64,000 nucleotides of DNA, taken from the NCBI GenBank assembly GCA_964384205.1, contig CAYLKS010000003.1, forward strand, positions 12,337 through 76,336. The letters are read 5' to 3'. Positions within the stretch are counted from its first letter, which is position 1. Every line of letters starts with the position of its first letter. Source of the stretch: an uncultured bacterium (GTDB taxonomy: Bacteria; JAGOEH01; CAYLKS01). The position numbers and the translations under genes were made by a program. The notes beneath the pieces are model-generated. The model worked only from the letters and a program-made list of their open reading frames with translations. It searched no databases and was not told where the DNA came from. This document shows, one piece after another, positions 41,719 through 64,000 of the stretch.

Positions 41719-41721
41719 ATA

Positions 41722-46185: not shown

Positions 46186-46224
46186 AGTTGAGCAATTAAA
46201 CAACAAAGAGAGGAGAATTTCCAA

Positions 46225-46416
46225 ATGGCTTACAGATGTGAAATTTGTGGAAAAAAACCACAGGTCGGTGCTACAATAAGTCATGCTCATAATGTGAACA
46301 AAAGAAGATTCTTACCTAATTTACAATCTGTTAACGCTATTGTTGACGGTAAAAGAAAAAAAATTAAAGTCTGCACTACATGTATAAAATCAGGCAGAGT
46401 CGTTAAAGCTATATAA
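46225..46416 (+). CDS. rpmB: 50S ribosomal protein L28 (Cys-containing form)
   Basis: CEICGK, SHAHN...RRFLPNLQ, KVCTTCIKSG. Confidence 0.97.
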   Translation: MAYRCEICGKKPQVGATISHAHNVNKRRFLPNLQSVNAIVDGKRKKIKVCTTCIKSGRVVKAI

Positions 46417-46444
46417 TAGCATAGGGGATCCCCTATGCTATTAT
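46413..46444. terminator. Perfect 32-bp palindrome between convergent stop codons (bidirectional terminator candidate)
   Basis: ATAATAGCATAGGGGATCCCCTATGCTATTAT; includes the TAA of rpmB and the TAA of the radical SAM gene at its two ends. Confidence 0.7.
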
Positions 46445-47829: not shown

Positions 47830-47832
47830 TAA

Positions 47833-48993: not shown

Positions 48994-49017
48994 AGTATCC
49001 TCCTTTTATATTTTTTA

Positions 49018-50262
49018 TTAAAATAAATCTTTAATCCATTCTTTCATTTTATCATAAATAACTTTAAATCTATTGCCATCCGATGAAAATCTTGATACTT
49101 CAGATTCACTATAATTTTGTAATCCATATAAACATAATCCAATTCCTGTGGAATATTGAGGATCTGATGCAACTCCTTTCAGTCCGCCAAATCCTACAGG
49201 ATAACCAATGCGAACTGGTTTCTCAAAAATTTGCTCCGCCAAAAGATCCATATTTCTCAATAACGCCCCTCCTCCTGTTAAAACAATACCACCGCCTAAC
49301 AAATCATAATAATCGCTTTTTTTCAATTCCCTATATATCAACATTAATATTTCTTCCACACGTGGTTGAATAATTTTATTCAACACATCCCTTGTAACAT
49401 ATCTATTTTTTCTACCACCAACTGGCCTTACTTCTATCTGTTCTTCCAGATCCTCATCAGAATCTTCAATAGCACAACCATATGTTTTCTTAATCCTCTC
49501 TGCTTCATCAATCGGAGCTGATAATCCGAAAGCTAAATCATCAGTTATACTATTACCACCCAAACCAACAACAGAAGTATATCTTATTGCATTACCATGA
49601 AAAATTGCAATATCTGATGTCCCACCTCCTATATCAATCAAAGCAACTCCTAATTCCTTTTCATCTTCTGTAAGAACAGCAAGACTTGAAGCAAGCGGCT
49701 CTAAAACAATATCTCTTACACCATAACCAGCCTTTTCAACACATCTATATAAATTTTGTGCTGAAGTAATTGCTCCTGTAACAATATGGACCTCTGCTTC
49801 TAATCTAACCCCAGACATACCAACAGGATCATTAATTCCCTTCTGCGAATCAACAATAAACTCCTGCGGAATAGCATGCAACACTTCCCTATCATTTGGA
49901 ATCTGTACAGCAATAGCTGCATCTATCACCCTTCTAACATCTTCTTCTGTAATCTCCTGACCGCGCGCAGCAACAACTCCTTTACTATTCTGGCTTTTAA
50001 TATGATCTCCTGCAATCCCCACATATACATCCATAACTTCAATCCCAGCCATTTTCTCTGCTTCTATTATTGCTCGCTGTATAGACTTTATAGTCTCATC
50101 AATATTAACAACTACTCCTTTTCTCAAACCTTTAGAGGGGGTGTTACCAATCCCCACAATCTTTGGACCTTCTTCTTCATTTTTACGAGCAATAATAGCA
50201 CAAATTTTTGTTGTACCTATATCAAGTCCAACAACAATTCGCTCTTCCTGTGCTCCACTCAT
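49018..50262 (-). CDS. ftsA: Cell division protein FtsA
   Basis: GLDIGTTKIC, GLRKGVV, GMSGVRLE, DIGGGTSD, VLTGGGA. Confidence 0.98.
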   Translation of the reverse strand: MSGAQEERIVVGLDIGTTKICAIIARKNEEEGPKIVGIGNTPSKGLRKGVVVNIDETIKSIQRAIIEAEKMAGIEVMDVYVGIAGDHIKSQNSKGVVAARGQEITEEDVRRVIDAAIAVQIPNDREVLHAIPQEFIVDSQKGINDPVGMSGVRLEAEVHIVTGAITSAQNLYRCVEKAGYGVRDIVLEPLASSLAVLTEDEKELGVALIDIGGGTSDIAIFHGNAIRYTSVVGLGGNSITDDLAFGLSAPIDEAERIKKTYGCAIEDSDEDLEEQIEVRPVGGRKNRYVTRDVLNKIIQPRVEEILMLIYRELKKSDYYDLLGGGIVLTGGGALLRNMDLLAEQIFEKPVRIGYPVGFGGLKGVASDPQYSTGIGLCLYGLQNYSESEVSRFSSDGNRFKVIYDKMKEWIKDLF

Positions 50263-50276
50263 TACTCCTCCTTGCC

Positions 50277-51047
50277 TTATATTTGTTTGGTTATTATTTG
50301 ATTATTATATTTCAAATCAATCAAATTAAAACTATTATCTAAATATAAATAATCAAAAATGAATCCCAGCTGCTTAATAGTCTCAATATTGGTATATTTA
50401 GATAACTCCAATAATTTTCCATTATCTAAAACAAAAATAATCTCATTGTCTTTATCAAATTTAATGAATTTAATTTTTGAATAAATATTCCCCAAATTAT
50501 TCTTTATATATTTTATATACTTCTTACATAAATCTATATTATACTTATTTAAAACTCTCATACTATCAATAATAAGATCTCTAACTTCTGGTAAAATTAA
50601 TAAAGTATCCAACAAAGTATCACTAATCAACTTCCCATTTTCATTCAAATAATAAGGATTGCCATTATAATTAACAACTCCTAATAACTCATACTCCTTT
50701 ATATCTATTGATAAATTAAATAACAATGTCCTGCTTACCTTAATATTACTAAATAATCCAGTACTATCTAATTTAAATGATAATTCTGATATCATTTTTT
50801 TATCCGGAAATTTCCCTATATAAGAAGAATAAATATGAGACAATAACTCCGGTTTTATATAATCTAACTTGTTTATATCAACCTTTTTAACCTTGAAAAA
50901 ATCAATTTTTCTAATTCCAAAATCTAATAAAATAAATACAATAGCAATACCAAATAAAAATAACAGATATTTTCTAAAATTTATCTCCAATTTTTTCTTC
51001 TTATCTATTTTAGAATATTTTCTTTCATAACGCGAATATACTCTCAT
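50277..51047 (-). CDS. ftsQ: Cell division protein FtsQ/DivIB (start revised to ATG 51047)
   Basis: Basic N-terminus, single TM, POTRA-like region, C-terminal IDLKYNNQII; lies between ftsW and ftsA. Confidence 0.8.
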   Translation of the reverse strand: MRVYSRYERKYSKIDKKKKLEINFRKYLLFLFGIAIVFILLDFGIRKIDFFKVKKVDINKLDYIKPELLSHIYSSYIGKFPDKKMISELSFKLDSTGLFSNIKVSRTLLFNLSIDIKEYELLGVVNYNGNPYYLNENGKLISDTLLDTLLILPEVRDLIIDSMRVLNKYNIDLCKKYIKYIKNNLGNIYSKIKFIKFDKDNEIIFVLDNGKLLELSKYTNIETIKQLGFIFDYLYLDNSFNLIDLKYNNQIITKQI

Positions 51048-51048
51048 A

Positions 51049-52149
51049 TTACCTCTCCACTTTATCAAGAACATGCCTTGAAATATTTAACAAAATTCCA
51101 ATACTTATCAAATTAAACAACATAGAGCTACCTCCATAACTAATAAAAGGCAAAGGTAACCCCTTATTGGGTAATATTGAAGTTACAACTCCTATATTAA
51201 TAAGAGCATATAAAACAATCATAATTCCAATACCAGATGCAAGTAAAAAACCAAATAAATCAAGAGCAGATCTTGCTATTTTGATACTTCTTATAAAAAT
51301 CAAAAAATATAAACAAACCAATATTAATGAACCTATAAAACCTGTTTCTTCTGCAAAAATAGAAAAAACAAAATCAGTATGTGATTCCGGTAAATAAAAT
51401 AATTTTTGACTACTCTGGCCAATACCAACTCCTAAAAAGCCTCCTTTACCAATACTAATCAATGACTGATTAATCTGATAATTTATGCCTAAAGGATCAA
51501 GTTCAGGATGCAAAAATCCTAAAAACCTCATATACCTATAATGTGAATGAGTTATTAATAAATAAATCAATGGAGCTGCTACTAATATAGTACCAATAAT
51601 ATATCGTTTAGGAACTCCTCCAACAATCATTATAAAAAAAGAAACCAAAGTAATTGTTACCGCAGTACCAAAATCTGGCTCCAAAACTATCAAAAAAAAT
51701 ACCAAACCTACTATTATGATCAATGGTATATATAAATCTGTAAAAGATTTTATTATATTCTGTTTCCTCGATAAAACATCTGCTAAAAAAATAATCAATA
51801 CAACCTTCGCCATTTCAGATGGCTGAAAATTAAAAAAGACAAACCTTAACCATCTATGAACACCAGAGGATGAATACAATTTTGGCAATAAAACAACTAT
51901 CAAAAAAAAGATACTAATTAATAAAAACAAAAATCCTTTCCTCTCGAAACTGTGATAATCTATCTTACTAAAAATATACATTAACACAATACCTATCAAT
52001 ATCTTTATAATATGATTCAAAGGATAATAAAATTTATTCTGAGAAATTATACTTCCTATACTGAAAGACATTACAATACCTACTCCAACCAAAATAAAAA
52101 CAATTGCTAATATTACAGTATCAATTCTACCTTTATGCGCCTTTAACAT
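51049..52149 (-). CDS. ftsW: SEDS peptidoglycan polymerase FtsW
   Basis: RWLR..FNFQPSEMAK, EPDFGT, YQINQS, G.G.GQSSQK.FYLPESHTDFVF, LPFISYGGSS. Confidence 0.96.
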   Translation of the reverse strand: MLKAHKGRIDTVILAIVFILVGVGIVMSFSIGSIISQNKFYYPLNHIIKILIGIVLMYIFSKIDYHSFERKGFLFLLISIFFLIVVLLPKLYSSSGVHRWLRFVFFNFQPSEMAKVVLIIFLADVLSRKQNIIKSFTDLYIPLIIIVGLVFFLIVLEPDFGTAVTITLVSFFIMIVGGVPKRYIIGTILVAAPLIYLLITHSHYRYMRFLGFLHPELDPLGINYQINQSLISIGKGGFLGVGIGQSSQKLFYLPESHTDFVFSIFAEETGFIGSLILVCLYFLIFIRSIKIARSALDLFGFLLASGIGIMIVLYALINIGVVTSILPNKGLPLPFISYGGSSMLFNLISIGILLNISRHVLDKVER

Positions 52150-53476
52150 ATCCTAAAATCCTTTCAGTTATTTCTTCCATTCTCATTCCTCTTGAACCTT
52201 TAACGCCAATTATAATATCATCTCCTAAGCAAGCTTTTAAGCGATCAAAAAGTGCATTCCTATCATTATTAAAAAATTCTCCCTTAGAATTTCCTTCTAT
52301 AAAATATCTTGAATAATCTCCAAGTGCAAAAATTTTCATTATATTCTCATTATAATTCAATAATAAATTCCCTATTTTCTTATGCAAATCTACTGCTAAT
52401 TCGCCCAATTCAAACATATCCCCAAGCACAAATACTAATTCCTTCTTTTTCTCATTCGATAAATGAGTAGCTGTTCTTATAAACAATTCCATAGAATCAG
52501 GATTAGAATTATAACAATCATTTATTATTAATATATTATTTAGTTCTATAATCTCCATCCTTTTGTCAGACGGTTTAAATTCATCAATAGATTGCTGAAT
52601 TAATTTATTATTAATATCAAAATAATCAGCAAGTGCCAAAACTAAAGCAAGATTATCAATATAAGGTAAAATATAAGAATTTATTTCAAAACTACGATTA
52701 GCATATTGTAATATATTTCCATTTAAAAGATAATCTTTACCATATTCAATGATTACCTTTTTCTTAATATCAAAAGCCTTTATATATTTTTGAAGAATTG
52801 AATCTTCTTTATTAAAAATAGCAATTTTATCCCTCTGCAAATATCTAAAAATATCAGCTTTTTCCTTTGCAACATTTTCCAAATCTTTAAAAAACTCCAA
52901 ATGACCATGCCCAATCTTTGTAATAATCCCAATATGAGGATTTATAATACTTGCCAAAAAATCTATCTCGCCCGGATAATTAGTGCCAATTTCAAAAACA
53001 ACAATTTCTGTACCCTCTGGTATATTAAAAATATTATAAATCAATCCTAAAAAATTATTAAAATTCTTAAAACTCTTGTACACCCTAAATTTTTTATTCA
53101 ACATAGAAGCACATAACTCTTTTGTAGTTGTTTTACCAACTGTACCTGTTATTGCAATCTTATATTTTAAATTAAGTTTATCCAAAAAAAACTTGCCCTT
53201 TTCAATAAGATAATTTTCAACATTATTCACAGGAACTAAATATTTATATAAACTTCTATCAAATCTCTCTAAATAATTTTTATCTATAATAGCCCCAGCT
53301 ATTTCCTTATTAATAATAGCATCTTCCACATAATTATGTCCATCATTTTTTTCAGTTTTTATGGCAACAAAAATTTGACCAGCAGAAATTTGCCTTGTAT
53401 CAAAATGAATACCCTTAAATTCATCATCATAATGTTTTAAATGATTTTGCTCGATAAAAATTTCTCTAATCTTCAT
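52133..53476 (-). CDS. murF: UDP-MurNAc-tripeptide--D-Ala-D-Ala ligase
   Basis: DGHNY, ITGTVGKTTTKE, NFNN..G, HLEFF, NDCYNSNPDSM, LGDMFELG, KGSRGMRME. Confidence 0.95.
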   Translation of the reverse strand: MKIREIFIEQNHLKHYDDEFKGIHFDTRQISAGQIFVAIKTEKNDGHNYVEDAIINKEIAGAIIDKNYLERFDRSLYKYLVPVNNVENYLIEKGKFFLDKLNLKYKIAITGTVGKTTTKELCASMLNKKFRVYKSFKNFNNFLGLIYNIFNIPEGTEIVVFEIGTNYPGEIDFLASIINPHIGIITKIGHGHLEFFKDLENVAKEKADIFRYLQRDKIAIFNKEDSILQKYIKAFDIKKKVIIEYGKDYLLNGNILQYANRSFEINSYILPYIDNLALVLALADYFDINNKLIQQSIDEFKPSDKRMEIIELNNILIINDCYNSNPDSMELFIRTATHLSNEKKKELVFVLGDMFELGELAVDLHKKIGNLLLNYNENIMKIFALGDYSRYFIEGNSKGEFFNNDRNALFDRLKACLGDDIIIGVKGSRGMRMEEITERILGYVKGA

Positions 53477-55529
53477 TTGTAACTTCCGGAATAATGATAT
53501 TGTTATTTAATTCATTTTTTGAATCAATATCCACTTTTTCCTCTACAATATCTTTAGCATATAAAACTACTGTTTTTCCTGATTTAATTTCAGCACCTGG
53601 TTCTGGGATTTGTTTATAAACTATTCCTTTACCATAAGATACAACTTTAAAATTATTTCTTTGTAGAATTAATTTTGCATTGGATAAAACTAAATTCTTA
53701 AAATCAGGCAATATTACATAACCTTTTTTTTCTTTGAAAATGATTTTTCTATTCAACTCACTACCAATATTTGAATTAACATTCACAAAATTCTTTGCGA
53801 TTCCCTTCTTAACTAAATAATCTTCTAATTTATTGCCCTTCAATAAAAAAATACGTTGAAATATTCTTTTAAACACAGGAGCAGCAACAGTTCCTCCAAA
53901 ATTTGAACCCTTCTTCGGATCTTTAATAATTATAAGACAACTATATTTTGGTTCATCAGCTGGCAAAAAACCAATAAAACTGGGGATAGTTTTATGCCCT
54001 GAATATTTTTTAGTCAAAGGATCAATATACTGAGCAGTACCTGTTTTACCAGCAATAGGTATGCTTTTTATACCAGCCCTAACTCCTGTGCCTGAATCAA
54101 CTACAGCAATAAGATATTCAATTAACTTTTTTCTAATATCTTCATCAAGCACCCTTCTTATAACAAGATTATCAAATTCTTCGACTCTCTTATCCGGGTA
54201 AACTATTTTTTTGATAATTCTCGGTTCAACAAGCGCTCCATCTCTTGCAATTAAATTATAAGCATTGATCAATTGTATAGGTGTAACAGCCACTTCCTGC
54301 CCTATAGACATTGTAGCTTTAGACCTTGCAGACCACTTTTCAGGGCTTCTTAATATACCTCTAACCTCTCCTGGAAGTTCAATTCCTGTAATTTCTCCAA
54401 AACCAAATAATTTTAAAAATTTAAAAAAATTCTGATCTGAGATACGTTCAGCAATCTTTATAATACCTATATTAGAACTATGTGCTATTATATCTTTCAA
54501 TCCAACCCAGCCAAAAGGATGAAGATCATGAATAACCTCGTCATTAATACTATAATGTCCATTATTGGCAAAAATAAGTTCATCTTCATTAACAAGCTTC
54601 AATTGCATCGCTGCTGCTAAAGAAAAAATCTTAAATGTACTACCTGGTTCATAAATATCTGTTATAGCTCTATTTCTACTATTTTCATTGATAACTTTCC
54701 TTGGATATTCATTAGGATTAAATAAAGGAACTGTTGCCATAGCCAAAATTTCATTAGTCTGAACATTTGTTATTATCCCAATGCCTATCTCCGCTTCCAG
54801 ACTATCAACTATATTAGAGAGCTCATCTTCTAATATTTCCTGAAACTTGCAATCCAATGTAGTATAAATATCACATCCATTTACTGGTTCTTTTATAATA
54901 TTATTGGGCAATCTATATTTATTCAATCTACCATCCCGCAAAAGATAACATAAACCATCCTCACCTGATAATAAAGAATCAAATTTAAATTCTAAACCTT
55001 CTATTCCTTTATTATCAATATTCGTAAATCCTATAACCTGAGACGCAAGACCTCCAAAAGGATAAAATCTTATATCATCAACCTTTTTATATACTCCTTC
55101 TAAATGATAATTATCTATTAATTGCGCTTTATTGTCCATAACCTTTCGCGCAAGATATAAAAAATTATTTCTCTTTTTAAATTGATCTAAAATATCTTCT
55201 TTACTCTTCGATGTAAATTTTGAAAATACCTCTGCCACCTTTAATGTATCCTTAACTTTATAAGGTACAGCAAAATAAGTAAAAGCTTTCAAATTTATAG
55301 CAAGCGTCTGACCATTTCTATCATATATATATCCTCTTTTAGCAGGGACCGGAGTAATCAGCATCGATTGCTTTTTTGCTTTTTTCTCATAATACCCATG
55401 CTTCAATATTTGCAAATTAAATAATCTAAAAATAATTGCTATCAAAAAAAAGACTAATATGCCACTAACTATTTTCAAATTATTTAAATGAAATGATTTA
55501 ACTCTCTCAATTCTATAAGAATACCTCAT
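53466..55529 (-). CDS. ftsI: Class B penicillin-binding protein FtsI with C-terminal PASTA
   Basis: RGYIYDRNG, EPGSTFK (SxxK), SSNIG (SxN), GKTGTAQ, PASTA-like LPDFKNL...QIPEPG. Confidence 0.95.
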   Translation of the reverse strand: MRYSYRIERVKSFHLNNLKIVSGILVFFLIAIIFRLFNLQILKHGYYEKKAKKQSMLITPVPAKRGYIYDRNGQTLAINLKAFTYFAVPYKVKDTLKVAEVFSKFTSKSKEDILDQFKKRNNFLYLARKVMDNKAQLIDNYHLEGVYKKVDDIRFYPFGGLASQVIGFTNIDNKGIEGLEFKFDSLLSGEDGLCYLLRDGRLNKYRLPNNIIKEPVNGCDIYTTLDCKFQEILEDELSNIVDSLEAEIGIGIITNVQTNEILAMATVPLFNPNEYPRKVINENSRNRAITDIYEPGSTFKIFSLAAAMQLKLVNEDELIFANNGHYSINDEVIHDLHPFGWVGLKDIIAHSSNIGIIKIAERISDQNFFKFLKLFGFGEITGIELPGEVRGILRSPEKWSARSKATMSIGQEVAVTPIQLINAYNLIARDGALVEPRIIKKIVYPDKRVEEFDNLVIRRVLDEDIRKKLIEYLIAVVDSGTGVRAGIKSIPIAGKTGTAQYIDPLTKKYSGHKTIPSFIGFLPADEPKYSCLIIIKDPKKGSNFGGTVAAPVFKRIFQRIFLLKGNKLEDYLVKKGIAKNFVNVNSNIGSELNRKIIFKEKKGYVILPDFKNLVLSNAKLILQRNNFKVVSYGKGIVYKQIPEPGAEIKSGKTVVLYAKDIVEEKVDIDSKNELNNNIIIPEVTNED

Positions 55530-55906
55530 AATTTTGCTAAATATTCATTATCTATCTCATTTTCTTCTGTGAAAATGACAATATTATTCACAGACGGATA
55601 AATCATATTAAGATTTTTTCTTGCGAAATTAGAAATTCTGGAAGGCGACTTTAAAGCCTGGATTCTGATAGATATATTTTGATTAATCTTTGATTCTAAA
55701 AAAAGATCCTTTTGTAAATTAGAAAGTTTAATTGAACTATTCAAAATAAATACTCTATTGTAAATATTAATTGAAAACAATATTATCAATACAGATAGCA
55801 TAAACATTAATCTTTTCACTGGTAAATTCACAGGCTCTATAAATTTTTTCTGTGAATAATAACCTTTTTTAACTTTGGAAGGCCTAAAAGAGTAATAACT
55901 TTTCAT
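55526..55906 (-). CDS. ftsL: Cell division protein FtsL
   Basis: Single TM + coiled coil + LKSPSRISNFARKNLNM; between rsmH and ftsI. Confidence 0.8.
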   Translation of the reverse strand: MKSYYSFRPSKVKKGYYSQKKFIEPVNLPVKRLMFMLSVLIILFSINIYNRVFILNSSIKLSNLQKDLFLESKINQNISIRIQALKSPSRISNFARKNLNMIYPSVNNIVIFTEENEIDNEYLAKL

Positions 55907-55924
55907 TTAATAACTCCTTTTATT

Positions 55925-56848
55925 TTAAATTTTCTCTGCTACACGTAGTTTTGCACTTCTCGCACGAATATTAAATTCTACTTCTACTTCATCAGGAACA
56001 ATTGGTTTTTTAGTAATAATTTTCAAACTTGCTTTATGCCTACAATTACAAACTGGAACTTCTGGAGGGCAAATACAATCACTTGATTCTAATTTAAAAA
56101 AATCCTTTACAATTCTATCTTCTAAAGAATGATAACTAATTACAACAATCCTTCCTTTAGAATCAAGAAAACCCAAAACATCTTCCAGAGATCTCTTCAA
56201 ATTTTCTAATTCTCTATTGACTTCTATTCTTATAGCTTGAAATAACTTAGATAACTCTTTTATCAAATTAGCATGAACAAAAACTGGCTCAACAATATCT
56301 TTAATATCGCGTACATATTTTATTTCTCTATCCTTCCTGAATTCGATGATCCTTCTTGCAATTGCTCTATATTGCTTTAATTCTCCATATTCCTTAAAAA
56401 TCCTTTCAAGTTCATCCTGAGAATAATTGTTCAAAATATTTATAGCACTATTTTCAGAAAGCCCCATATTCATATCCAAAATCGCATCATCATCTCTATA
56501 AGAAAAACCCTTTTCATATTGATTTAACTGATATGATGAAACTCCAAGATCATATAATATTCCATTTATTTTATTAATTCCCAGCTCTGCTAATATATTT
56601 TTTATATTAGCAAAATTATCACGTACAACTTTCCAGTTATCATACTGCTTATACTTTTTATAAAAATTTTCAATTGCATCTTTATCCATATCTATAGAAA
56701 TAAGCATACCATTAGAGGATAATCTTTTTAATATTTCATAAGAATGCCCACCGCCACCCAAAGTTGCATCAACATATATTCCATCAGAAATTATATCCAG
56801 ATATTCTATAGACTTTTCTAACAAAACTGGCTTATGATATATTTGCAT
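55925..56848 (-). CDS. rsmH: 16S rRNA m4C1402 methyltransferase
   Basis: HKPVLL, DATLGGGGHS, DLGVSSYQL, FQAIRIEVNREL, SYHSLEDRIVK, RARSAKLR. Confidence 0.98.
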   Translation of the reverse strand: MQIYHKPVLLEKSIEYLDIISDGIYVDATLGGGGHSYEILKRLSSNGMLISIDMDKDAIENFYKKYKQYDNWKVVRDNFANIKNILAELGINKINGILYDLGVSSYQLNQYEKGFSYRDDDAILDMNMGLSENSAINILNNYSQDELERIFKEYGELKQYRAIARRIIEFRKDREIKYVRDIKDIVEPVFVHANLIKELSKLFQAIRIEVNRELENLKRSLEDVLGFLDSKGRIVVISYHSLEDRIVKDFFKLESSDCICPPEVPVCNCRHKASLKIITKKPIVPDEVEVEFNIRARSAKLRVAEKI

Positions 56849-57146
56849 TTTTCAAATACCTATCAAGGACTGGAAAATCAATAAAATCCTTTGAAAAATT
56901 TAAAATATTTCGCACATCAGACGACATATTTCTAAAAATAATTTTTATCCCCCTTCTTTTCATAATAGAACAACACGCTAACAATTTCTGAGCATCTCTA
57001 TAATGGATATAGGTGGTTTTTTTAAAGTCAAGAATACATATATCAAAATCATTATCTAAAACAGAATACATATTATCAACATCCTCTGTCTTTACTGTTT
57101 TATTAAAATACACTTTTAACTGCTGCTTAGAAATATAAAATCTCAT
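56832..57146 (-). CDS. STAS-domain-like small protein
   Basis: ICILDFKKTTYI...KLL...MKRRGIKIIFRNMSSDVRNIL follows the STAS pattern; the DSSG phospho-site is absent. Confidence 0.6.
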   Translation of the reverse strand: MRFYISKQQLKVYFNKTVKTEDVDNMYSVLDNDFDICILDFKKTTYIHYRDAQKLLACCSIMKRRGIKIIFRNMSSDVRNILNFSKDFIDFPVLDRYLKNANIS

Positions 57147-57157
57147 TTGTCAATCAC

Positions 57158-57610
57158 CTAAAATGAAAATGATAATTCTTCAGCAATTTTATTTATATCT
57201 GATTCCACATCTCCCATAAACTGATCAAAATCTTCTGGATTCCATATTTGAATTTTATCTATATCACCAACAAACAGCACTTTCCTTTCTTTATTACTAT
57301 TATCTAATTTTAAGAGTTTGATAAAATTAGAATTCAAATTTATCCGTCCTTGTTTATCTATATCCACATAATCAGCATTCCCAGCAAAAAAAATACGCAA
57401 TTTTCTTGCAGAAGAATTCCACTGAGAAAGGTTTTCTAATTTTTCCAACAACTTCTCCCAATTTTCAACAGTATAAGAATACAAACATCCATCCAAACCT
57501 TTTGTAATTACTATTTGACTTGCGCCTAATAATTTTCTAAACTTATGAGGAATTGCTACTCTACCTTTTATATCAACAGAATTTAAAAATCTACCAGAAA
57601 AATAATTCAT
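57158..57610 (-). CDS. mraZ: Transcriptional regulator MraZ
   Basis: SVDIKGRVAIP, TKGLDGCL, DIDKQGRI (two DxxGR motifs), IQIW. Confidence 0.95.
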   Translation of the reverse strand: MNYFSGRFLNSVDIKGRVAIPHKFRKLLGASQIVITKGLDGCLYSYTVENWEKLLEKLENLSQWNSSARKLRIFFAGNADYVDIDKQGRINLNSNFIKLLKLDNSNKERKVLFVGDIDKIQIWNPEDFDQFMGDVESDINKIAEELSFSF

Positions 57611-57630
57611 TTTTTATCCTAAAACCTTTC

Positions 57631-57664
57631 CCAATTTTCACCACATTTTACCACTTATCACCAC
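57631..57664 (-). promoter_or_regulatory. MraZ-binding dcw boxes (GTGG-N6 repeats)
   Basis: CCAC at 57641, 57651 and 57661 on the plus strand (GTGG on minus) at exact 10-nt spacing, plus a degenerate CCAA at 57631. Confidence 0.85.
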
Positions 57665-57673
57665 TTAATTCTA

Positions 57674-57701
57674 ATTATATAATTTTTCCTCTTCTTGTCA
57701 A
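57674..57701 (-). promoter_or_regulatory. dcw cluster promoter
   Basis: TTGACA-16-TATAAT immediately upstream of the GTGG boxes. Confidence 0.85.
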
Positions 57702-57861
57702 GTATTATTTTTTTTTATAAAAAAAATATAATTTTTTACAACTTATTGTATATCAATATATTATACTTTGTATTTCTAAAATGATATAAAAAAAATTTTC
57801 TTTATTAAAAAATATAAATTAATATTTATTTATTAAAATTCCTATAAATACCTATATAAAT

Positions 57862-58332
57862 TTATTTACACATGCCACGGCGTATTTCATGTAAATATTT
57901 TTTCAATCGCCTTGGAAATTTCTCTTCAAAAACAATATATTTAACATACTGCTTATATGTTAAAATATCTCTCATTTCATTACGAAAATTCTCCATCTCT
58001 TCTCTAATTTGATATCCAATTTCATCTATAGCATCAATAATTTTATCACAATGTTTCCTATCTATTTTATTTTCTCTTATCAAGCCATCTAAACTATCTA
58101 TTAATTTTTCTTTTTGTTTAAAAAGCTCAAAAAGTTTCTCTCTATTCTTCTTTACTAATGGAAATATTACTGCTGTCTGCTCTTCAGTCAAATTTAACTC
58201 TTCTGTTAACTTCAATAATTTTAGTGTCTGAATTTTAGAATCAAGTCTTGGATCAGGCGGTCTTTTAAAATCATCTGCTCGTAAACTTGAAAACATTATA
58301 AAAATAACAAATAACCAAAATAATTTATTCAT
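57862..58332 (-). CDS. Periplasmic helical protein, Spy/CpxP-like
   Basis: Signal peptide; LTEELNLTEEQ and ILTYKQ (LTxxQ motifs). Confidence 0.65.
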   Translation of the reverse strand: MNKLFWLFVIFIMFSSLRADDFKRPPDPRLDSKIQTLKLLKLTEELNLTEEQTAVIFPLVKKNREKLFELFKQKEKLIDSLDGLIRENKIDRKHCDKIIDAIDEIGYQIREEMENFRNEMRDILTYKQYVKYIVFEEKFPRRLKKYLHEIRRGMCK

Positions 58333-58346
58333 ATAAAATCTCCTTT

Positions 58347-58889
58347 TTATTTTTTATCTTCTAAAATATGAATTTTATCTAAGTTATTCTCAATTAAAGT
58401 AATATCATCTATTGTAAATTCATCTTCTAAATAATAAGTAGTATCAACATCACTAAAATCATAAACAAGATCATCAAAATAAAAAGAATTATCATTCATC
58501 TTAGCTGTTTGCAAGATATCATACAAATAAACATCAAGATCTATATTATTAGTAGTATGTTTATTAAAAGAAAAATAAGAAAACATAATAACCATAATAA
58601 TAAAAACTGAAAACACTATTGCAGGCTTTAAAATTTTTGTCCTCTCAACTACCCTATTACCAATATGTTCTATAATATGTTCCGGTAACTTTTCAAAAAA
58701 TTCCTCATCAGGAAAATCTATTTTTTCTTTTTCTACTACTTCTCTTATAGAATTTAAATCTTCAAATTCTTTAGCACAAATACTACATATAGCTAAATGT
58801 TCCTGTATTTCTTTTTGTTTTTCCTCTGATAGGTCCTCAGGAGAAAATACAAAAATTTTTATGTAATCGAAAAAATTACAATTTTTCAT
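58347..58889 (-). CDS. Zinc-finger (ZAS) anti-sigma factor
   Basis: EHLAICSIC (HxxxCxxC), single TM, follows the ECF sigma with overlap. Confidence 0.85.
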   Translation of the reverse strand: MKNCNFFDYIKIFVFSPEDLSEEKQKEIQEHLAICSICAKEFEDLNSIREVVEKEKIDFPDEEFFEKLPEHIIEHIGNRVVERTKILKPAIVFSVFIIMVIMFSYFSFNKHTTNNIDLDVYLYDILQTAKMNDNSFYFDDLVYDFSDVDTTYYLEDEFTIDDITLIENNLDKIHILEDKK

Positions 58890-59397
58890 AATTTATCTCC
58901 ATATATTTTTTTACTTTTTTCAAAGCTTGAAAAAAATTAGATCTCGCTGCTCCTGATGTAATGCTAAAAATTTCACCAATCTCATTAAAAGATAAATTAT
59001 CATAAGCTCTACTCAGAAAAATTGCCTTCTGCTTTGGCGGAAGTTTCTCTACTGCTTTATTTAAAATATCTATTTTTTCCCTATTAATCAAATTATCAAC
59101 AATATTATTATTCTTCGACGCAAAAAAATTAATAAAACTGTCAAAAGGAATGATATTCATTAATTTTTTCTTTCTCAAATAAGAAATAGATTTATTAACT
59201 GCAATTCTATAAAAATAAGTATACATTTTCGATTTTCCTTCAAAATTTTTTAAATTACGATAACCATCAAATAGAGTATCCTGTAATATATCAACTGCAA
59301 CTTCTTTATCATTAACCATCTTATATATAATTATATATAATCTTTTCTCATATTTTTTAATAAACTCTTTAAATTCTTTTTCTAATATATTAGTCAT
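58876..59397 (-). CDS. ECF RNA polymerase sigma factor
   Basis: AVDILQDT, FEGKS..YTYFYRIAVN (region 2); LPPKQKAIF...LSFNEIGEI...ARSNFFQA (region 4). Confidence 0.95.
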   Translation of the reverse strand: MTNILEKEFKEFIKKYEKRLYIIIYKMVNDKEVAVDILQDTLFDGYRNLKNFEGKSKMYTYFYRIAVNKSISYLRKKKLMNIIPFDSFINFFASKNNNIVDNLINREKIDILNKAVEKLPPKQKAIFLSRAYDNLSFNEIGEIFSITSGAARSNFFQALKKVKKYMEINYEKL

Positions 59398-59418
59398 AAT
59401 TTATAAAAATTCGTTTAA
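59378..59418 (-). promoter_or_regulatory. ECF-type promoter motif, copy 2 (overlaps sigma start codon)
   Basis: TTAAAC-17-GACTAATATATTAGAAA; the G of GACTAA is the G of ATG 59397. Confidence 0.45.
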
Positions 59419-59450
59419 TAAAAAATAAAAAAATATATAAAAAAAGCAAT

Positions 59451-59490
59451 AAAAAAAGGAGTGTAAACAATAGATTACACTCCTTTTTTT
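59451..59490. terminator. Intrinsic terminator after the Spy/ZraP-like gene
   Basis: 16-bp inverted repeat AAAAAAAGGAGTGTAA / TTACACTCCTTTTTTT, 8-nt loop. Confidence 0.85.
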
Positions 59491-59510
59491 ACTTTCAATT
59501 AGATTATAAC

Positions 59511-60032
59511 TTATCTATCCATTCGTGGCATACCTCTATTCATTTTCAAATCTTTTAAATTTTTACGTTGTTCTGCTGTTAACACACTATACATTTCAAG
59601 TTTTGTTTTAAAATTCAACTCTTCCATTTGGCTCTTTAATTGCAAAATCTTTTTATTAAGAGAAAGTAAGTCTTGTTTATTAAAATTGTCATCAAGCATC
59701 ATTTGTTTCATTTTCAATCCCAAATGCTGCATTTTAGCTTTTAAATCGATTAATTCTTCTTTTGCTTTAAAATCCAAATCTCTAATTTTTTGTAATTGAC
59801 TATCTGTTAATTTTATTTCTTCAGCTACTCTTTGATAAAACATATAACCCAGGAAAATCCCCTTCTTATATTTCATCATACGCATATCTTTATCCATATG
59901 ACCTTTACCCATCATACAATTCATATCCATTCTTTTAACAGGTTTGTCATCCATCTTAGGCCTCATCTGAGCATTAATTGATACTACACAAATTAAAAAA
60001 GCAACAACCGTTAAAGTGATTAACTTTTTCAT
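59511..60032 (-). CDS. Spy/CpxP/ZraP-family periplasmic protein, Met/His-rich N-terminus
   Basis: Signal peptide, Met-rich segment, IKLTDSQ and VLTAEQR; SD AAGGAGG. Confidence 0.8.
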   Translation of the reverse strand: MKKLITLTVVAFLICVVSINAQMRPKMDDKPVKRMDMNCMMGKGHMDKDMRMMKYKKGIFLGYMFYQRVAEEIKLTDSQLQKIRDLDFKAKEELIDLKAKMQHLGLKMKQMMLDDNFNKQDLLSLNKKILQLKSQMEELNFKTKLEMYSVLTAEQRKNLKDLKMNRGMPRMDR

Positions 60033-60053
60033 TTTATCCTCCTTGTTTTTTTT

Positions 60054-60094
60054 CTTTCTGATATATTAGACTAAAAATTAAAAAAAATGTTTAA
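60054..60094 (-). promoter_or_regulatory. ECF-type promoter motif, copy 1
   Basis: TTAAAC-17-GTCTAATATATCAGAAA, i.e. AAC-N18-TCTAA spacing as in RpoE/AlgU-type promoters. Confidence 0.6.
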
Positions 60095-60105
60095 AGAAAA
60101 ATATA

Positions 60106-60936
60106 TTAAATAAAAAAAAGTAACAGCCCCAAAAACATAAATATCTTAAATATTCTTAAAGCAAAAAATAAACTATTTTCCTCAAAATGTTTTTTAAAAA
60201 CAATATAAGAAAAAATAAAGATGGGGAAAATTACCAGCACTAACATAAAGATTAAAAGCATTATATTCTGCTGATAAAAAAAATAAAAATAAAAAATGGC
60301 AATTAAAAGCACTAATAAAAAAGCATTAGCAATCAGCCAGGCACGTTTTTTACCTAATTTTACAGGCAAAGTGAAAATATTATTCCTTTTATCGCCATCA
60401 AAATCATAAATATCCTTCATAATTTCCCTGAAAATTGAAATAAAAAATGCAAAAAGGGCCATTGGTATAGCTGAAACAAAAGAATTAACTGCAAGTCCTC
60501 CACATAAAAAAGCAAAAGCAACATTGATTGCAACAGTAAAATTTTTTATAAAAATAATCCGCTTAAAAATAGGTGTATAAAAAAATGAAATAATTACTGC
60601 TAAAAAAACAATAATATTAATTTTCCAGTTCAAAAAACTCGATATAAAAAAACTCAAAAAAAATAAAAATATAGAAATATACAATGCAAAAACAGGGGAT
60701 ATCTTATTTGATGGCAAAGGCCTTTGCGGCCTATTTATCATATCTATTTCCAGATCAAAATAATCATTAATAATATTAGCAGATAATGTTACTATTAAAG
60801 AAACTATTGAAATTAAAATCAATTCTCTATTAATATGAAAATTACTACCAGCACTAAAAGCGCCTGCAAAAACACACAAAAAAACCATTAACCCATTAAA
60901 AGGTCTGGTCAATCTTATAAAATCAAAAACCTTCAT
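60106..60936 (-). CDS. UbiA prenyltransferase, DGGGP-synthase-like
   Basis: LTRPFNG, NIINDYFDLEIDMINRPQRPLPS, REIMKDIYDFDGD. Confidence 0.8.
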   Translation of the reverse strand: MKVFDFIRLTRPFNGLMVFLCVFAGAFSAGSNFHINRELILISIVSLIVTLSANIINDYFDLEIDMINRPQRPLPSNKISPVFALYISIFLFFLSFFISSFLNWKINIIVFLAVIISFFYTPIFKRIIFIKNFTVAINVAFAFLCGGLAVNSFVSAIPMALFAFFISIFREIMKDIYDFDGDKRNNIFTLPVKLGKKRAWLIANAFLLVLLIAIFYFYFFYQQNIMLLIFMLVLVIFPIFIFSYIVFKKHFEENSLFFALRIFKIFMFLGLLLFFI

Positions 60937-61883
60937 ATCCGATCTTTTGTAAAAATTTTAGGGTAAATAATTCCAAATCTTCTCTTATAATATAACCTAC
61001 TTAATAAAACTATAAATATAATAATCAATATAAAAAAAGGAAATAATATACCTACAATTAAAGTAATTGATGCTGTACAAAGTCTAACAGCTTTTAAAAA
61101 ATAATGTACTTCTTTTTTATAAAAAACTATAATAAAAAAATATAAAGATAACAAAATTGGTAGCAAAGCGATAATATCTTTATTTATAATACCAAAAGTA
61201 ATAGACAATATTAATAATATTAATCCTAAAATTATAGTTTTATCTACCCCCAGATATACACCTGTTGTTATATTGCCTGTTTTTTTATCTCCCTCAATAT
61301 CAGGTATAGTAGTGTACAAAAAAACAACACCTGTCATAAAAATATATGGTAGTGAAATAACTAATAAATTATAAATATTATGAGAATATAAGCAATAACC
61401 TATACCAATATTTAAGAAACCATTACCAAAGGCATTGGAGAATAAATCAAAAAATGGCCTACCCTTAAAATGAAAAGGATAGGCCGAATATAAAAAACTT
61501 AATATAACTAAAGCAATAGTAAATAATTTAACATGGAAATTTTGGTTATAAAGTAAAAAAAACAATAATAAATACAATACAAAAACAAAAATCCAGGAAG
61601 ACGTTACACTAATATAACCATCTGATAACAAAAATAACTTTCTATTAATCTTATCTGTTTCAATATCATAAATCTGATTAATTATGTAAGCAGTACCACC
61701 CACAATCGAAACTATCAAGAATCCCTTGATTAGCTGCCAGTTTGGGAAAAACATAATATCAAATTTGCCCTTATTCAGTAAAATAGCATGGTAAACTCCA
61801 ATAAGATAAAAAAACCATACTGGAATTAACACAATAGGTCTTAAAAGAAAAAAATAATCTAAAATTTTTACTAATTGCCTCAT
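60933..61883 (-). CDS. UbiA family prenyltransferase (second, divergent)
   Basis: LLRP, YIINQIYDIETDKIN, YSAYPFHFK.RP, TIPDIEGDKKTG; multi-TM. Confidence 0.8.
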   Translation of the reverse strand: MRQLVKILDYFFLLRPIVLIPVWFFYLIGVYHAILLNKGKFDIMFFPNWQLIKGFLIVSIVGGTAYIINQIYDIETDKINRKLFLLSDGYISVTSSWIFVFVLYLLLFFLLYNQNFHVKLFTIALVILSFLYSAYPFHFKGRPFFDLFSNAFGNGFLNIGIGYCLYSHNIYNLLVISLPYIFMTGVVFLYTTIPDIEGDKKTGNITTGVYLGVDKTIILGLILLILSITFGIINKDIIALLPILLSLYFFIIVFYKKEVHYFLKAVRLCTASITLIVGILFPFFILIIIFIVLLSRLYYKRRFGIIYPKIFTKDRI

Positions 61884-61887
61884 AAGA

Positions 61888-62505
61888 TTATTTTTTAATT
61901 AAATAAACCTTCATTTCAATTTTTTCTATTGGATTATCTCTCTCATCTGTTTTCTGTTGAGCAATTTTCTCAACAACATCCATGCCTGCGATAACTTTTG
62001 CAAATACAGTATAATTACCGTCTAACATAGGTAAATCTCTAAGACAAATATAAAATTGGCTTCCATTAGATTCTTTTTGAGGATTGACATTATCAGGCAT
62101 TCTGGCAGCACCAACATAACCTTTTAAATGCTTTGCTTTTATTTCAGCAGGAATTGTATAACCAGGTCCTCCTGTACCATCATTTGCTCTATCATCATCT
62201 TTACTTAAAGGGTCTCCGCCCTGTATAACAAAATTCGGCACTACTCTATGAAAAGTAGTCCCATTAAAAAAACCTTCTTTTGCTAATTTTTTAAAATTTT
62301 CTACATGTTTTGGAGCATCATTTTCTAAAAAATCCAAATAAATTTTACCAAATTTTGTTTCAATTACTGCAATCTCTCTACCTTTAGGAAGATTCAATTC
62401 TTCTTTTTTTGCTGTTTCTTCTGTAGATTTTTTTTCAGATTTTTTACCACAAAATGAAAAAGCCAATGCAAAAATTACCAGTAAAAATAATACTCTCTTA
62501 AACAT
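61888..62505 (-). CDS. Cyclophilin-type peptidyl-prolyl isomerase, lipoprotein (start revised to ATG 62505)
   Basis: SD AAAGGAGG, lipobox-like FSFC, APKHVENF, FHRVVPNFVIQGGDP, NGSQFYI, LDGNYTVF. Confidence 0.93.
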   Translation of the reverse strand: MFKRVLFLLVIFALAFSFCGKKSEKKSTEETAKKEELNLPKGREIAVIETKFGKIYLDFLENDAPKHVENFKKLAKEGFFNGTTFHRVVPNFVIQGGDPLSKDDDRANDGTGGPGYTIPAEIKAKHLKGYVGAARMPDNVNPQKESNGSQFYICLRDLPMLDGNYTVFAKVIAGMDVVEKIAQQKTDERDNPIEKIEMKVYLIKK

Positions 62506-62527
62506 AAAACCTCCTTTTTTTATAAAA

Positions 62528-63055
62528 CTAATCCATTGCTCCAACAAACGGCAAATTCCTCAAATAACCTTTATAATCAAGTCCATAACCTACTACAAAT
62601 CTATTAGGTATTTTGAATCCATGATAATCAATTGGAACTTCAATTACCCTTGCATCTACTTTATCCAACAACACACACACCTTTAATGCCTTAGGATTTC
62701 TTATCTTAAAATTATTAATTAAATAATGTAAACTTCTTCCTGTATCCACAATATCCTCAACAATAATTACATTCTTTCCTTCTATATTCGATTTTAAATC
62801 CTTGATCAGACGAACTACTCCACTTGAAAATTTTTCATCTCCATAACTCGATATTTCTATAGTGTCATATTGCAAAGGTACATCTATCTCTCTTATCAAA
62901 TCAGCTAAAAAGATAAGACCACCTCGTAAAATACTTACTAAAAAAACTTCATCTCCTTTAAAATCTTCAGAAATTTTTCTACCAATTTCTTTCACTTTTT
63001 CTTTAATTTGATCTTCTGTAATTAAAATTTCTTTAATTGGAGGTATATCTATCAT
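62528..63055 (-). CDS. hpt: Hypoxanthine phosphoribosyltransferase
   Basis: ILRGGLIF, ISSYG, IVEDIVDTGRSL, LLDK, FVVGYGLDY...RNLP. Confidence 0.97.
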   Translation of the reverse strand: MIDIPPIKEILITEDQIKEKVKEIGRKISEDFKGDEVFLVSILRGGLIFLADLIREIDVPLQYDTIEISSYGDEKFSSGVVRLIKDLKSNIEGKNVIIVEDIVDTGRSLHYLINNFKIRNPKALKVCVLLDKVDARVIEVPIDYHGFKIPNRFVVGYGLDYKGYLRNLPFVGAMD

Positions 63056-64000
63056 ATTTCCTTCTTTGTAAAAAAATTAAACACTTCTGGTAAAAAATCA
63101 ATCAAATCTTTTGAAGTAACAGAATATTTTGACAACTTCTCTCCTGCAATCTCACCAGCTATTCCATGAATATACATAGCTGTTTTTGCTGATTCCACCA
63201 AATCAAAATTTTGAGCAGTAATTCCAGCAATAATTCCAGTTAAAACATCCCCAGAACCAGCGGTAGCCAGAGAATCATCTCCTGATGAATTCAAATAAAC
63301 ATTGCCATTATAATCTACAATAAACGACGGCATAACTTTCAACAATATATTAATTTTGTATTCTAATGATATTTTTCTAACAATTTCAACCGGATTCTTC
63401 AAAATCTCTGCAATTCCCATACCTGTCAATTTAGAAAATTCCCCTGGATGAGGAGTTATAATAGTCATTTCATTACACCTGTCTTTCAACCACTCAAGAT
63501 TTAAATTATAAATTGCATCAGCATCTAAAATCAATTTACCATTCCAATTTTCAAGTATAAATTTCAAAACATCTCTTACAATATTATCCCTGCCAAAACC
63601 AGGCCCTGCAACAAGCACATCACTCCATTTTGTTATATTTTCCCACTCTCTATAAATATCCAAAAAAGACTCAAGTCCAATTGTCATAATCTGAGGATGT
63701 GAACTAAAACTCACATTTGCAGCATCTTTTAATGTATACCACTTAACAAGACCTGCACCAGATCTCAATGTAGAACTGGAGGCAAGCAACCCTGCCCCAA
63801 ACATCCCATGATTGCCAGCAATAATACTAACTTTTCCATAATTCCCTTTATGGAAATAATCCTTTCTTTCAGGAAAAAAGATTTCATCATCTTCTAAAGA
63901 ATACATATAAATATCAACATCCGATAGTACTTCCTCTGGAATAGAAATATCAACAACGAATATATCTCCTGTATATAATTCCGAAGGATGAAAGATCATT
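63052..64000 (-). CDS. nnr: NAD(P)HX dehydratase (C-terminal part of probable bifunctional Nnr), 5' end beyond window
   Basis: HKGNYGKV..IAG, GAGLV, GPGFG, DADA, TPHPGEF, LATAGSGDVLTG. Confidence 0.93.
   Translation of the reverse strand, partial: MIFHPSELYTGDIFVVDISIPEEVLSDVDIYMYSLEDDEIFFPERKDYFHKGNYGKVSIIAGNHGMFGAGLLASSSTLRSGAGLVKWYTLKDAANVSFSSHPQIMTIGLESFLDIYREWENITKWSDVLVAGPGFGRDNIVRDVLKFILENWNGKLILDADAIYNLNLEWLKDRCNEMTIITPHPGEFSKLTGMGIAEILKNPVEIVRKISLEYKINILLKVMPSFIVDYNGNVYLNSSGDDSLATAGSGDVLTGIIAGITAQNFDLVESAKTAMYIHGIAGEIAGEKLSKYSVTSKDLIDFLPEVFNFFTKKEI

What the first reader, a model, noticed from the sequence alone, without database searches (positions are those of the whole stretch)
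59378..60094. Duplicated ECF-type promoter; second copy sits on the sigma factor's own start codon
Seen: upstream of the Spy/ZraP gene, TTAAAC-N17-GTCTAATATATCAGAAAG; at the sigma gene, TTAAAC-N17-GACTAATATATTAGAAAA. That is 15 of 18 identical in the -10/+1 block with identical spacing. In copy 2 the -10 includes the G of ATG 59397, so an ECF-driven transcript would start inside the sigma ORF, omit its start codon and still carry the anti-sigma and downstream Spy-like gene. A separate sigma70-like TTGCTT-16-TATTTT lies upstream. Known: AAC...TCTAA is RpoE/AlgU-like, and ECFs usually autoregulate positively. Inference: a negative-feedback design in which active sigma makes more anti-sigma but not more sigma.
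Basis: partly seen in the sequence, partly recalled or inferred. Interest (0 to 1): 0.68.

Follow-up and report, generated by a model that had tools for sequence, protein, structure and literature searches.

The report
ECF promoter overlapping sigma's start codon
A stress-response sigma factor gene carries its own recognition promoter on top of its start codon, so the active sigma probably makes more of its inhibitor but not more of itself; this feedback design is already known from other bacteria, but here it has an unusual geometry that three relatives share.

Summary
On the minus strand, TTAAAC-N17-GTCTAA (P1, 60094..60066) precedes a Spy/CpxP-like gene. TTAAAC-N17-GACTAA (P2, 59418..59390) overlaps the ECF sigma gene, and the G of ATG 59397..59395 is the first base of the -10 element.

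The motif is this sigma family's cognate promoter. It lies in front of the orthologous sigma gene in 68 of 166 related loci. A matrix built from those sites ranks P1 first and P2 second in the window.

The overlap is not an accident. One orthologue (43% identity) has the same ATG/-10 overlap. Another (50%) has its ATG inside the spacer. Closer relatives are leaderless, and more distant ones have normal short leaders.

No usable in-frame start codon lies between the predicted +1 (59383) and the invariant Phe9. P2 transcripts therefore should encode the anti-sigma and the second Spy-like protein, but not sigma.

This is negative feedback of a known kind (E. coli rseA P3, C. glutamicum PrshA) in a new geometry.

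Caveats:
- No transcription start data exist.
- P2 has A at -11, where every relative has T.
- The upstream housekeeping promoter is weak.
- P1 and P2 are two regulon sites, not a duplication.

The parts
60089..60094 (-). P1 -35 element TTAAAC (family consensus ATTAAAC)
60066..60071 (-). P1 -10 element GTCTAA. The predicted +1 is A60059, preceded by C60060. The leader is 27 nt and contains AAGGAGG.
59511..60032 (-). Periplasmic LTXXQ / Spy-CpxP-like protein, 173 aa. It has a signal peptide and a Met/His-rich N-terminal stretch. It is the output gene of P1.
   Evidence: PF07813 at 31.1 bits against a cutoff of 24.3; weak CpxP/Spy NCBIfam hits
59448..59493 (-). Strong intrinsic terminator that can fold on either strand. 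It separates the Spy-like gene from the sigma operon.
   Evidence: fold -23.6 kcal/mol, z -6.6
59422..59449 (-). Weak sigma70-like TTGCTT-N16-TATTTT. It is a candidate housekeeping promoter for a sigma-coding transcript, but it is at chance level.
   Evidence: read; not listed by the scan
59413..59418 (-). P2 -35 element TTAAAC
59390..59395 (-). P2 -10 element GACTAA. G59395 is the G of the sigma ATG, and ACT AAt are codons 2-3. A59394 is at -11, where relatives have T.
   Evidence: same overlap in L003
59383..59384 (-). Predicted P2 transcription start: T(-1)/A(+1), 14 nt downstream of the A of the ATG. This is inferred, not measured.
   Evidence: geometry; purine enrichment 11-13 nt after the -12 base in 45 family promoters
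58876..59397 (-). ECF sigma factor, 173 aa, with sigma2 and sigma4 domains and a very short N-terminus. There is no Shine-Dalgarno sequence before the ATG.
58347..58889 (-). Membrane anti-sigma factor with a ZAS signature (C4, H31-x3-C35-x2-C38), one predicted TM segment and an acidic outer domain. It has its own GGAG seven nt before the ATG and overlaps the end of the sigma gene by 14 nt.
57862..58332 (-). Second periplasmic Spy-like protein (Metal_resist/DUF4890-like), 156 aa, with its own AGGAG. The three-gene order sigma, anti-sigma, Spy-like is conserved in relatives.

Best explanation
The locus is an envelope- or metal-stress module. It consists of an RpoE/AlgU-like ECF sigma, a ZAS-type membrane anti-sigma and two periplasmic Spy/CpxP-like proteins.

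The sigma recognises TTAAAC-N17-GTC(T/A)AA. P1 is an ordinary regulon promoter for the upstream Spy-like gene.

P2 is the homologue of the family's autoregulatory promoter. In this small clade it lies 13-25 nt further into the gene than in relatives, so its -10 element is built from the G of the sigma start codon plus codons 2-3.

Transcripts from P2 would start at about 59383 and lack the start codon. They could be translated only from the anti-sigma gene and the second Spy-like gene, each of which has its own ribosome-binding site. Active sigma would then raise its inhibitor and its periplasmic partners but not itself. This is negative feedback that speeds shut-off.

Sigma-coding mRNA must come from further upstream: a weak housekeeping promoter, or read-through of the preceding terminator.

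Shown: the motifs, their geometry, their conservation, the absence of alternative start codons, and the independent ribosome-binding sites.

Inferred: that P2 fires, where it starts, and the source of the sigma-coding transcript.
For: Geometry read directly.

Family promoter:
- It is found before the sigma gene in 68 of 166 related loci, usually with the start codon 21-30 nt after the -12 base.
- The family matrix ranks P1 first and P2 second in the window.

Orthologues:
- L003 (43% identity) has AAAC-N17-GTCTAA with ATG 1448..1450 sharing its G with the -10 element.
- L168 (50% identity, 41% GC) has AAAC 3994-N17-GTCTAA 4015, with ATG 4001 inside the spacer. Its codon ACG aligns with the ATG of the other two in the same phase. 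This points to one ancestral arrangement that survived while the spacers diverged completely.
- L001 and L007 have GTCAAA-N2-ATGATG, which is leaderless geometry.
- L006 and L170 have ordinary leaders.

All of P1, P2, L003 and L168 have a pyrimidine-A pair followed by GAA at the predicted +1.

No alternative start:
- There is no in-frame ATG, GTG or TTG between +1 and Phe9, which is invariant in the five-sequence alignment A2.
- Met27 is not conserved; it is Phe in P0004.
- Residues 2-28 form the first helix of the predicted sigma2 domain.

Other support:
- The anti-sigma genes have their own Shine-Dalgarno sequences in the window, L168, L001 and L003.
- No terminator-like site on the minus strand lies downstream of P2 within the operon.
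- Precedents for the logic: rseA P3 inside rpoE and the SigH-dependent PrshA, with sigH itself driven only by housekeeping promoters.
Against: - No transcript 5' ends are available. No RNA runs exist for the window, and runs for the orthologue loci could not be queried.
- P2 has A at -11, where T precedes the C in essentially all related promoters. Its matrix score is barely above the best chance hits.
- A roughly 495-nt untranslated sigma ORF at the 5' end of P2 transcripts might be prone to premature termination or decay.
- The promoter for the sigma-coding transcript is not identified. The sigma70-like site is at chance level.
- Read-through from P1 could still give some positive feedback.
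- Only three lineages show the intragenic arrangement, and they share ancestry.
Confidence: 0.5

Rival explanations
1. P2 in this genome is a decaying relic. The T-to-A change at -11 has largely inactivated it. The sigma operon is expressed only from upstream transcription, so there is no autoregulation in either direction at this site.
For: T at -11 is invariant in the 45 fixed-spacing family promoters. In a relaxed scan, loci without T-C showed almost only ATCC variants that keep the T. P2 scores 11.8 bits against 17.5 for P1, close to the best chance hits.
Against: The -35 element, the exact 17-nt spacing, G-12, C-10, AA and the pyrimidine-A-GAA start context are all kept. The 12 nt after the -10 match P1 at 10 of 12 (frequency 3.5e-4 in random pairs). 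Orthologues L003 and L168 keep a canonical GTCTAA in the same place.
Confidence: 0.2
2. This is ordinary positive autoregulation after all. P2 transcripts are translated into a shorter sigma from a non-canonical or internal start codon (for example ATT at Ile13, or Met27), as happens for M. tuberculosis SigE isoforms. The annotated ATG is used only on other transcripts, or not at all.
For: M. tuberculosis sigE P3 lies inside the ORF, and its mRNA is translated from two non-canonical starts. Streptomyces sigR uses a GTC start codon. AAGAG lies 3 nt before ATT (Ile13) in the window.
Against: - No near-cognate codon lies between +1 and the invariant Phe9.
- The ATT codons of the window, L003 and L168 are not at aligned positions.
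- Met27 is Phe in P0004.
- Helix 1 of the sigma2 domain spans residues 2-28, and the Pfam region-2 match starts at residue 13. Such isoforms would therefore lose part or all of a core helix.
- An in-frame ATG open to the ORF is kept upstream of +1 in all three lineages. L168 has a compensating ATG four codons further up.
Confidence: 0.12
3. The shared block is an operator for another DNA-binding protein. CTAATATATTAG in P2 is a perfect 12-bp palindrome.
For: The palindrome is visible. Similarity extends beyond the -10 hexamer.
Against: The palindrome is imperfect in P1 (CTAATATATCAG) and absent in L003 (CTAATAGAATAG) and L168. What is conserved is the bipartite -35/-10 motif at fixed spacing. 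AT-rich palindromes are common in 25% GC DNA.
Confidence: 0.03
4. P2 is a chance resemblance in very AT-rich DNA.
For: The bare motif is expected 0.46 times per window, and 6% of shuffles give two hits. Other window positions score nearly as high as P2.
Against: P2 sits at the homologous position of the orthologues' promoter, including one in 41% GC DNA. It lies on the coding strand, next to the cognate sigma gene.
Confidence: 0.03

Closest known systems
E. coli rseA P3 (sigmaE-dependent promoter inside rpoE that drives rseABC)
   Same: A cognate ECF promoter inside the sigma ORF yields transcripts that encode the anti-sigma but not the sigma (PMC8595263). The sigma is of the same RpoE-like type, with an AAC / TC.AA motif.
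   Different: In E. coli the promoter lies deep in rpoE, 228 nt before rseA, and coexists with a sigmaE-dependent promoter upstream of rpoE. Here it overlaps the start codon, and no canonical autoregulatory promoter directly serves the sigma gene.
Corynebacterium glutamicum sigH-rshA (SigH-dependent PrshA)
   Same: The sigma-plus-anti-sigma transcript comes from housekeeping promoters only. An extra sigma-dependent promoter transcribes the anti-sigma alone, and is proposed to speed shut-off (PMC3489674).
   Different: PrshA starts 62-66 nt before rshA, at the 3' end of sigH, and gives a monocistronic transcript. RshA is a soluble ZAS protein, and the promoter motif is different (GGAA / GTT). 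The transcription starts there were mapped experimentally.
Mycobacterium tuberculosis sigE P2/P3 and Streptomyces sigR
   Same: These are ECF sigma genes with a leaderless autoregulated transcript (sigE P2), an internal promoter (sigE P3, rsrAp) and unusual start codons (PMC10027907; PMC5472188). The relatives L001 and L007 here look like the leaderless case.
   Different: In those systems the internal promoters are read by other sigmas, or the product is a functional shorter sigma. Here no usable downstream start codon is visible.
Canonical positively autoregulated ECF operons (sigW-rsiW, algU-mucA, rpoE P2)
   Same: Same sigma type, same promoter motif and spacing, and the same sigma/anti-sigma gene order. 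Most relatives in the FCB-group metagenome-assembled genomes (MAGs) have this layout with 9-18 nt leaders.
   Different: In the window, the predicted +1 lies downstream of the start codon.

Membership tests
ECF (group 4) sigma-70 family, RpoE/AlgU/SigW-like | Only sigma2 and sigma4 domains, about 170-200 aa | tested here: met
   PF04542 and PF08281 are above their cutoffs. TIGR02937 scores 87 bits against a cutoff of 42.9. The best solved relatives are AlgU, SigW and RpoE. The model shows two helical domains joined by a low-confidence linker.
ECF (group 4) sigma-70 family, RpoE/AlgU/SigW-like | Cognate promoter with AAC in the -35 element and a C-containing -10 element (GTC/TC.AA) at fixed spacing | tested here: met
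   TTAAAC-N17-GTC(T/A)AA lies before the orthologous genes in 68 of 166 loci. P1 is canonical. P2 has one deviation (A at -11).
ECF (group 4) sigma-70 family, RpoE/AlgU/SigW-like | Adjacent co-directional anti-sigma gene | tested here: met
   The 180-aa ORF overlaps the sigma stop codon. It has C4 and H31-x3-C35-x2-C38, conserved in L168 and L001. The zf-HC2 and RsrA hits are below their cutoffs.
Positively autoregulated ECF operon | The cognate promoter gives a transcript that contains the sigma start codon | tested here: not met
   The predicted +1 (59383) is 14 nt downstream of A59397, and no alternative in-frame start precedes Phe9. This test is by sequence geometry only.
Anti-sigma-only feedback promoter (rseA P3 / PrshA type) | Cognate promoter located downstream of the sigma start and upstream of the anti-sigma gene | tested here: met
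Anti-sigma-only feedback promoter (rseA P3 / PrshA type) | The anti-sigma can be translated independently of the sigma | tested here: met
   GGAG lies 7 nt before ATG 58889. Orthologues have comparable sites.
Anti-sigma-only feedback promoter (rseA P3 / PrshA type) | A mapped sigma-dependent transcription start producing the shorter transcript | not testable with these tools
   No RNA runs were found.
Anti-sigma-only feedback promoter (rseA P3 / PrshA type) | A separate sigma-independent promoter for the sigma-coding transcript | tested here: inconclusive
   Only a weak TTGCTT-N16-TATTTT was found. Promoter-like sites are not enriched in the region. Terminator read-through is the alternative source.
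Spy/CpxP/ZraP (LTXXQ) periplasmic proteins | LTXXQ-motif helical domain with a signal peptide | tested here: met
   Gene 1: PF07813 at 31.1 bits, above the cutoff of 24.3. Gene 4 has only sub-threshold Metal_resist and DUF4890 hits. The two proteins are not detectably similar to each other (E 0.2).

The most novel reading that the evidence does not exclude
In a small clade of uncultured bacteria, the ancestral positive autoregulatory ECF promoter has slid 13-25 nt into the sigma gene. The same eight bases now serve as the -10 element on DNA and as the start codon plus codons 2-3 on mRNA. This turns positive autoregulation into pure negative feedback, in which the sigma induces only its anti-sigma and a periplasmic partner. 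Sigma synthesis then depends on terminator read-through from the upstream gene. Relatives preserve the intermediate stages: a short leader, then leaderless, then intragenic.
Probability: 0.35. Interest if true: 0.65.

Novelty: new variant of a known kind. Interest (0 to 1): 0.5.

Why it matters
ECF sigma/anti-sigma pairs are the most common alternative-sigma signalling modules, and they are usually assumed to be positively autoregulated. This locus would show that a shift of about a dozen bases in the promoter can reverse the sign of autoregulation. Living relatives appear to represent each stage of that shift.

It also warns annotators and regulon predictors: a cognate promoter next to a sigma gene does not prove that the sigma induces itself. 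The practical value is modest until a transcription start is measured.

Tried and rejected
- RNA evidence: no RNA runs hold the window. The DNA runs hold only fragments of the same strain plus low-complexity noise, so they give no variation data.
- Rfam: nothing relevant in 57000..61000.
- Block duplication: rejected, because spacer identity is at chance level.
- Further regulon members in the window: the relaxed motif gives many plus-strand hits that are antisense to genes. The third-best matrix hit (25963, minus strand) lies antisense inside a plus-strand gene. No further credible sites were found.
- Leaderless translation of the window sigma from a housekeeping promoter: TATAAA ends only 2 nt before the ATG, which is too close for a start at A59397.
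- Lack of a Shine-Dalgarno sequence before the sigma ATG as an argument: about half of the window's genes also lack one under a crude first-ATG test, so this is not informative.
- L068 (Ignavibacteria) as an independent second origin: it has GTG overlapping GTCTAA. However, its close relatives have an ATG about 27 nt downstream that L068 has lost, and it is a single contig from a metagenome-assembled genome. It is weak evidence.
- The metagenome scan returned only distant relatives (30-41% identity), with no new members of the close clade.

Full report
**What is there.** All genes in this part of the window are on the minus strand, and the DNA is about 25% GC. In the direction of transcription the locus contains:
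- a 173-aa periplasmic LTXXQ/Spy-CpxP-like protein, 60032..59511 (PF07813 above its cutoff);
- a strong hairpin terminator, 59493..59448 (-23.6 kcal/mol, z -6.6);
- a 173-aa ECF sigma factor, 59397..58876 (Sigma70_r2 and r4_2; the best solved relatives are AlgU, SigW and RpoE);
- a 180-aa membrane anti-sigma with a ZAS signature, 58889..58347;
- a second Spy-like protein, 58332..57862;
- mraZ.

**The observation.** I confirmed it base by base. P1 is TTAAAC (60094..60089)-N17-GTCTAATATATCAGAAAG. P2 is TTAAAC (59418..59413)-N17-GACTAATATATTAGAAAA. The G of the sigma ATG (59395) is the first base of the -10 hexamer. Identity in the 18-nt block is 15/18.

The short pattern alone is only weakly significant: 2 hits against 0.46 expected, and 6 of 100 shuffles reach 2. 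The spacers are unrelated (8/17, chance frequency 0.125). The 12 nt after the hexamer match at 10/12 (chance frequency 3.5e-4). These are therefore two sites constrained at the same functional positions, not a duplicated block.

**Is it the cognate promoter?** Yes, by comparative evidence. Relatives of the sigma were collected from genomes and metagenomes. They come from uncultured Delongbacteria, Ignavibacteria, Melioribacter, Zixibacteria and similar MAGs.

- In 68 of 166 loci, AAC-N17-19-xTC(T/A)AA lies just before the sigma gene. The first start codon is typically 21-30 nt after the -12 base, which implies leaders of 9-18 nt.
- A matrix built from 45 unique fixed-spacing sites has the consensus ATTAAACTTT...(A/G)TC(T/A)AA, with purine enrichment 11-13 nt after the -12 base. 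In the window it ranks P1 first and P2 second.
- Counting from the flipped-out -10 C, and expecting a pyrimidine-purine pair at -1/+1 (PMC7776599), gives +1 at A60059 for P1 and at A59383 for P2.

**The overlap is conserved.**
- Orthologue L003 (P0004, 43% identity, 31% GC) has AAAC 1429-N17-GTCTAA 1450. Its only start codon, ATG 1448..1450, shares its G with the -10 element, exactly as in the window.
- L168 (P0014, 50% identity, 41% GC) has AAAC 3994-N17-GTCTAA 4015, with ATG 4001 inside the spacer. Its codon ACG aligns in the same phase with the ATG of the other two. The three therefore share one ancestral arrangement, and L168 has moved its start four codons upstream.
- The spacers have diverged completely, while the -35 element, the spacing, the -10 element and a pyrimidine-A-GAA start context are kept.
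- The next relatives, L001 and L007 (51%), have GTCAAA-N2-ATGATG. This is the geometry of a leaderless autoregulated mRNA.
- The 190-aa clade, L006 and L170, has ordinary leaders of 46-60 nt from the -12 base.
- The close clade has also lost the N-terminal 15-20 residues that RpoE-like sigmas carry. Residue 8 of the query aligns with residue 21 of AlgU.

**Can P2 transcripts encode sigma?**
- No ATG, GTG or TTG lies in frame between +1 and Phe9, in the window, L003 or L168. Phe9 is invariant in the five-sequence alignment.
- The first AUG after +1 is out of frame.
- Met27 is not conserved; it is Phe in P0004.
- The predicted structure puts residues 2-28 in the first helix of the sigma2 domain (mean pLDDT 82). 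A Met27 start would delete that helix.
- The in-frame ATT codons are not at aligned positions.
- An open, in-frame ATG upstream of +1 is kept in all three lineages, including a compensating one in L168. This argues that the upstream ATG is the real start codon and that a longer transcript must exist.
- The anti-sigma and Spy-like genes have their own Shine-Dalgarno sequences.
- No minus-strand terminator-like site lies within the operon.

**Most likely mechanism (confidence about 0.5).** P1 drives the upstream Spy-like gene. P2 drives a 5'-truncated transcript that yields the anti-sigma and the second Spy-like protein but no sigma, which gives negative feedback. Sigma-coding mRNA comes from upstream transcription.

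The source of that mRNA is unresolved. In L003 a terminator abuts the -35 element, so read-through from the upstream aspartyl-tRNA synthetase gene is the likeliest source there. In the window, read-through from P1 could add some positive feedback.

**Caveats and rivals.**
- P2 is the only site with A at -11. T is invariant there in relatives, and the P2 score is barely above the best chance hits. It may be weak or decaying (rival, 0.2).
- A short sigma isoform made from a non-canonical start has precedents: M. tuberculosis sigE P3 and the Streptomyces sigR GTC start. The sequence does not support this here (0.12).
- The perfect palindrome CTAATATATTAG in P2 is not conserved in P1, L003 or L168, so an operator is unlikely.
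- No RNA data could be obtained.

**Comparison with known systems.** The logic is known. E. coli rseA P3 is a sigmaE-dependent promoter inside rpoE that makes rseABC (PMC8595263). In C. glutamicum, sigH-rshA is driven by housekeeping promoters, while a SigH-dependent promoter transcribes rshA alone and is proposed to speed shut-off (PMC3489674).

What is different here:
- the promoter overlaps the start codon itself;
- it seems to be the displaced autoregulatory promoter, not an additional one;
- relatives show a graded series from a short leader, through leaderless, to intragenic.

I therefore rate it a new variant of a known kind. It is of moderate interest and depends on transcription start mapping.

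Noticed in passing
L001 659..693; L007 1376..1410: In the Delongbacteria-like relatives the same ECF promoter ends 2 nt before a double ATGATG. The predicted +1 falls on the A or T of the second ATG, so the autoregulated sigma mRNA would be leaderless.
   Followed up: partly
L068 480..520: In an Ignavibacteria MAG, the only in-frame start that gives a full-length sigma is a GTG whose last G is the -12 base of GTCTAA. Close relatives (about 70% identity) have an ATG about 27 nt downstream that this contig lacks. This could be an independent case, a lost start codon or an assembly fault.
   Followed up: partly
window 59870..59970 (minus strand), residues ~22-55 of the Spy-like protein: There is a Met/His-rich stretch after the signal peptide (MRPKMDDKPVKRMDMNCMMGKGHMDKDMRMMKYKK). 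It resembles Met-rich copper/silver-binding segments and hints that the module responds to metal stress.
   Followed up: no
window 58347..58889; L168 4513..5088; L001 1196..1741; L006 5554..6162; L170 3560..4162: The anti-sigma has a complete ZAS ligand set (C4, H31-x3-C35-x2-C38). It is conserved in the short-N-terminus clade (L168, L001) but absent from the anti-sigmas of the 190-aa clade (L006, L170).
   Followed up: partly
window 56832..57146 (minus strand): A 104-aa ORF lies between mraZ and rsmH, where the two genes are usually adjacent. It has no Pfam match.
   Followed up: partly
window 1..64000: Nearly every gene is on the minus strand. GC skew is negative in 31 of 32 2-kb bins, and GC content is about 21-35%. 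The window seems to lie within one replichore of a very AT-rich genome.
   Followed up: no
window 60106..61883 (minus strand): Two tandem, overlapping UbiA-family prenyltransferase genes lie directly upstream of P1.
   Followed up: no
window 40489, 41718, 33824, 22800 (minus-strand ATG positions): Several genes lack a Shine-Dalgarno sequence and have TATAAT-like hexamers 3-5 nt before the ATG. They may be leaderless or very short-leader mRNAs in this genome.
   Followed up: no
window 59448..59493: The terminator hairpin is flanked by an A-run on one side and a T-run on the other. The scan scores it as a terminator on both strands, although no plus-strand gene converges on it.
   Followed up: no
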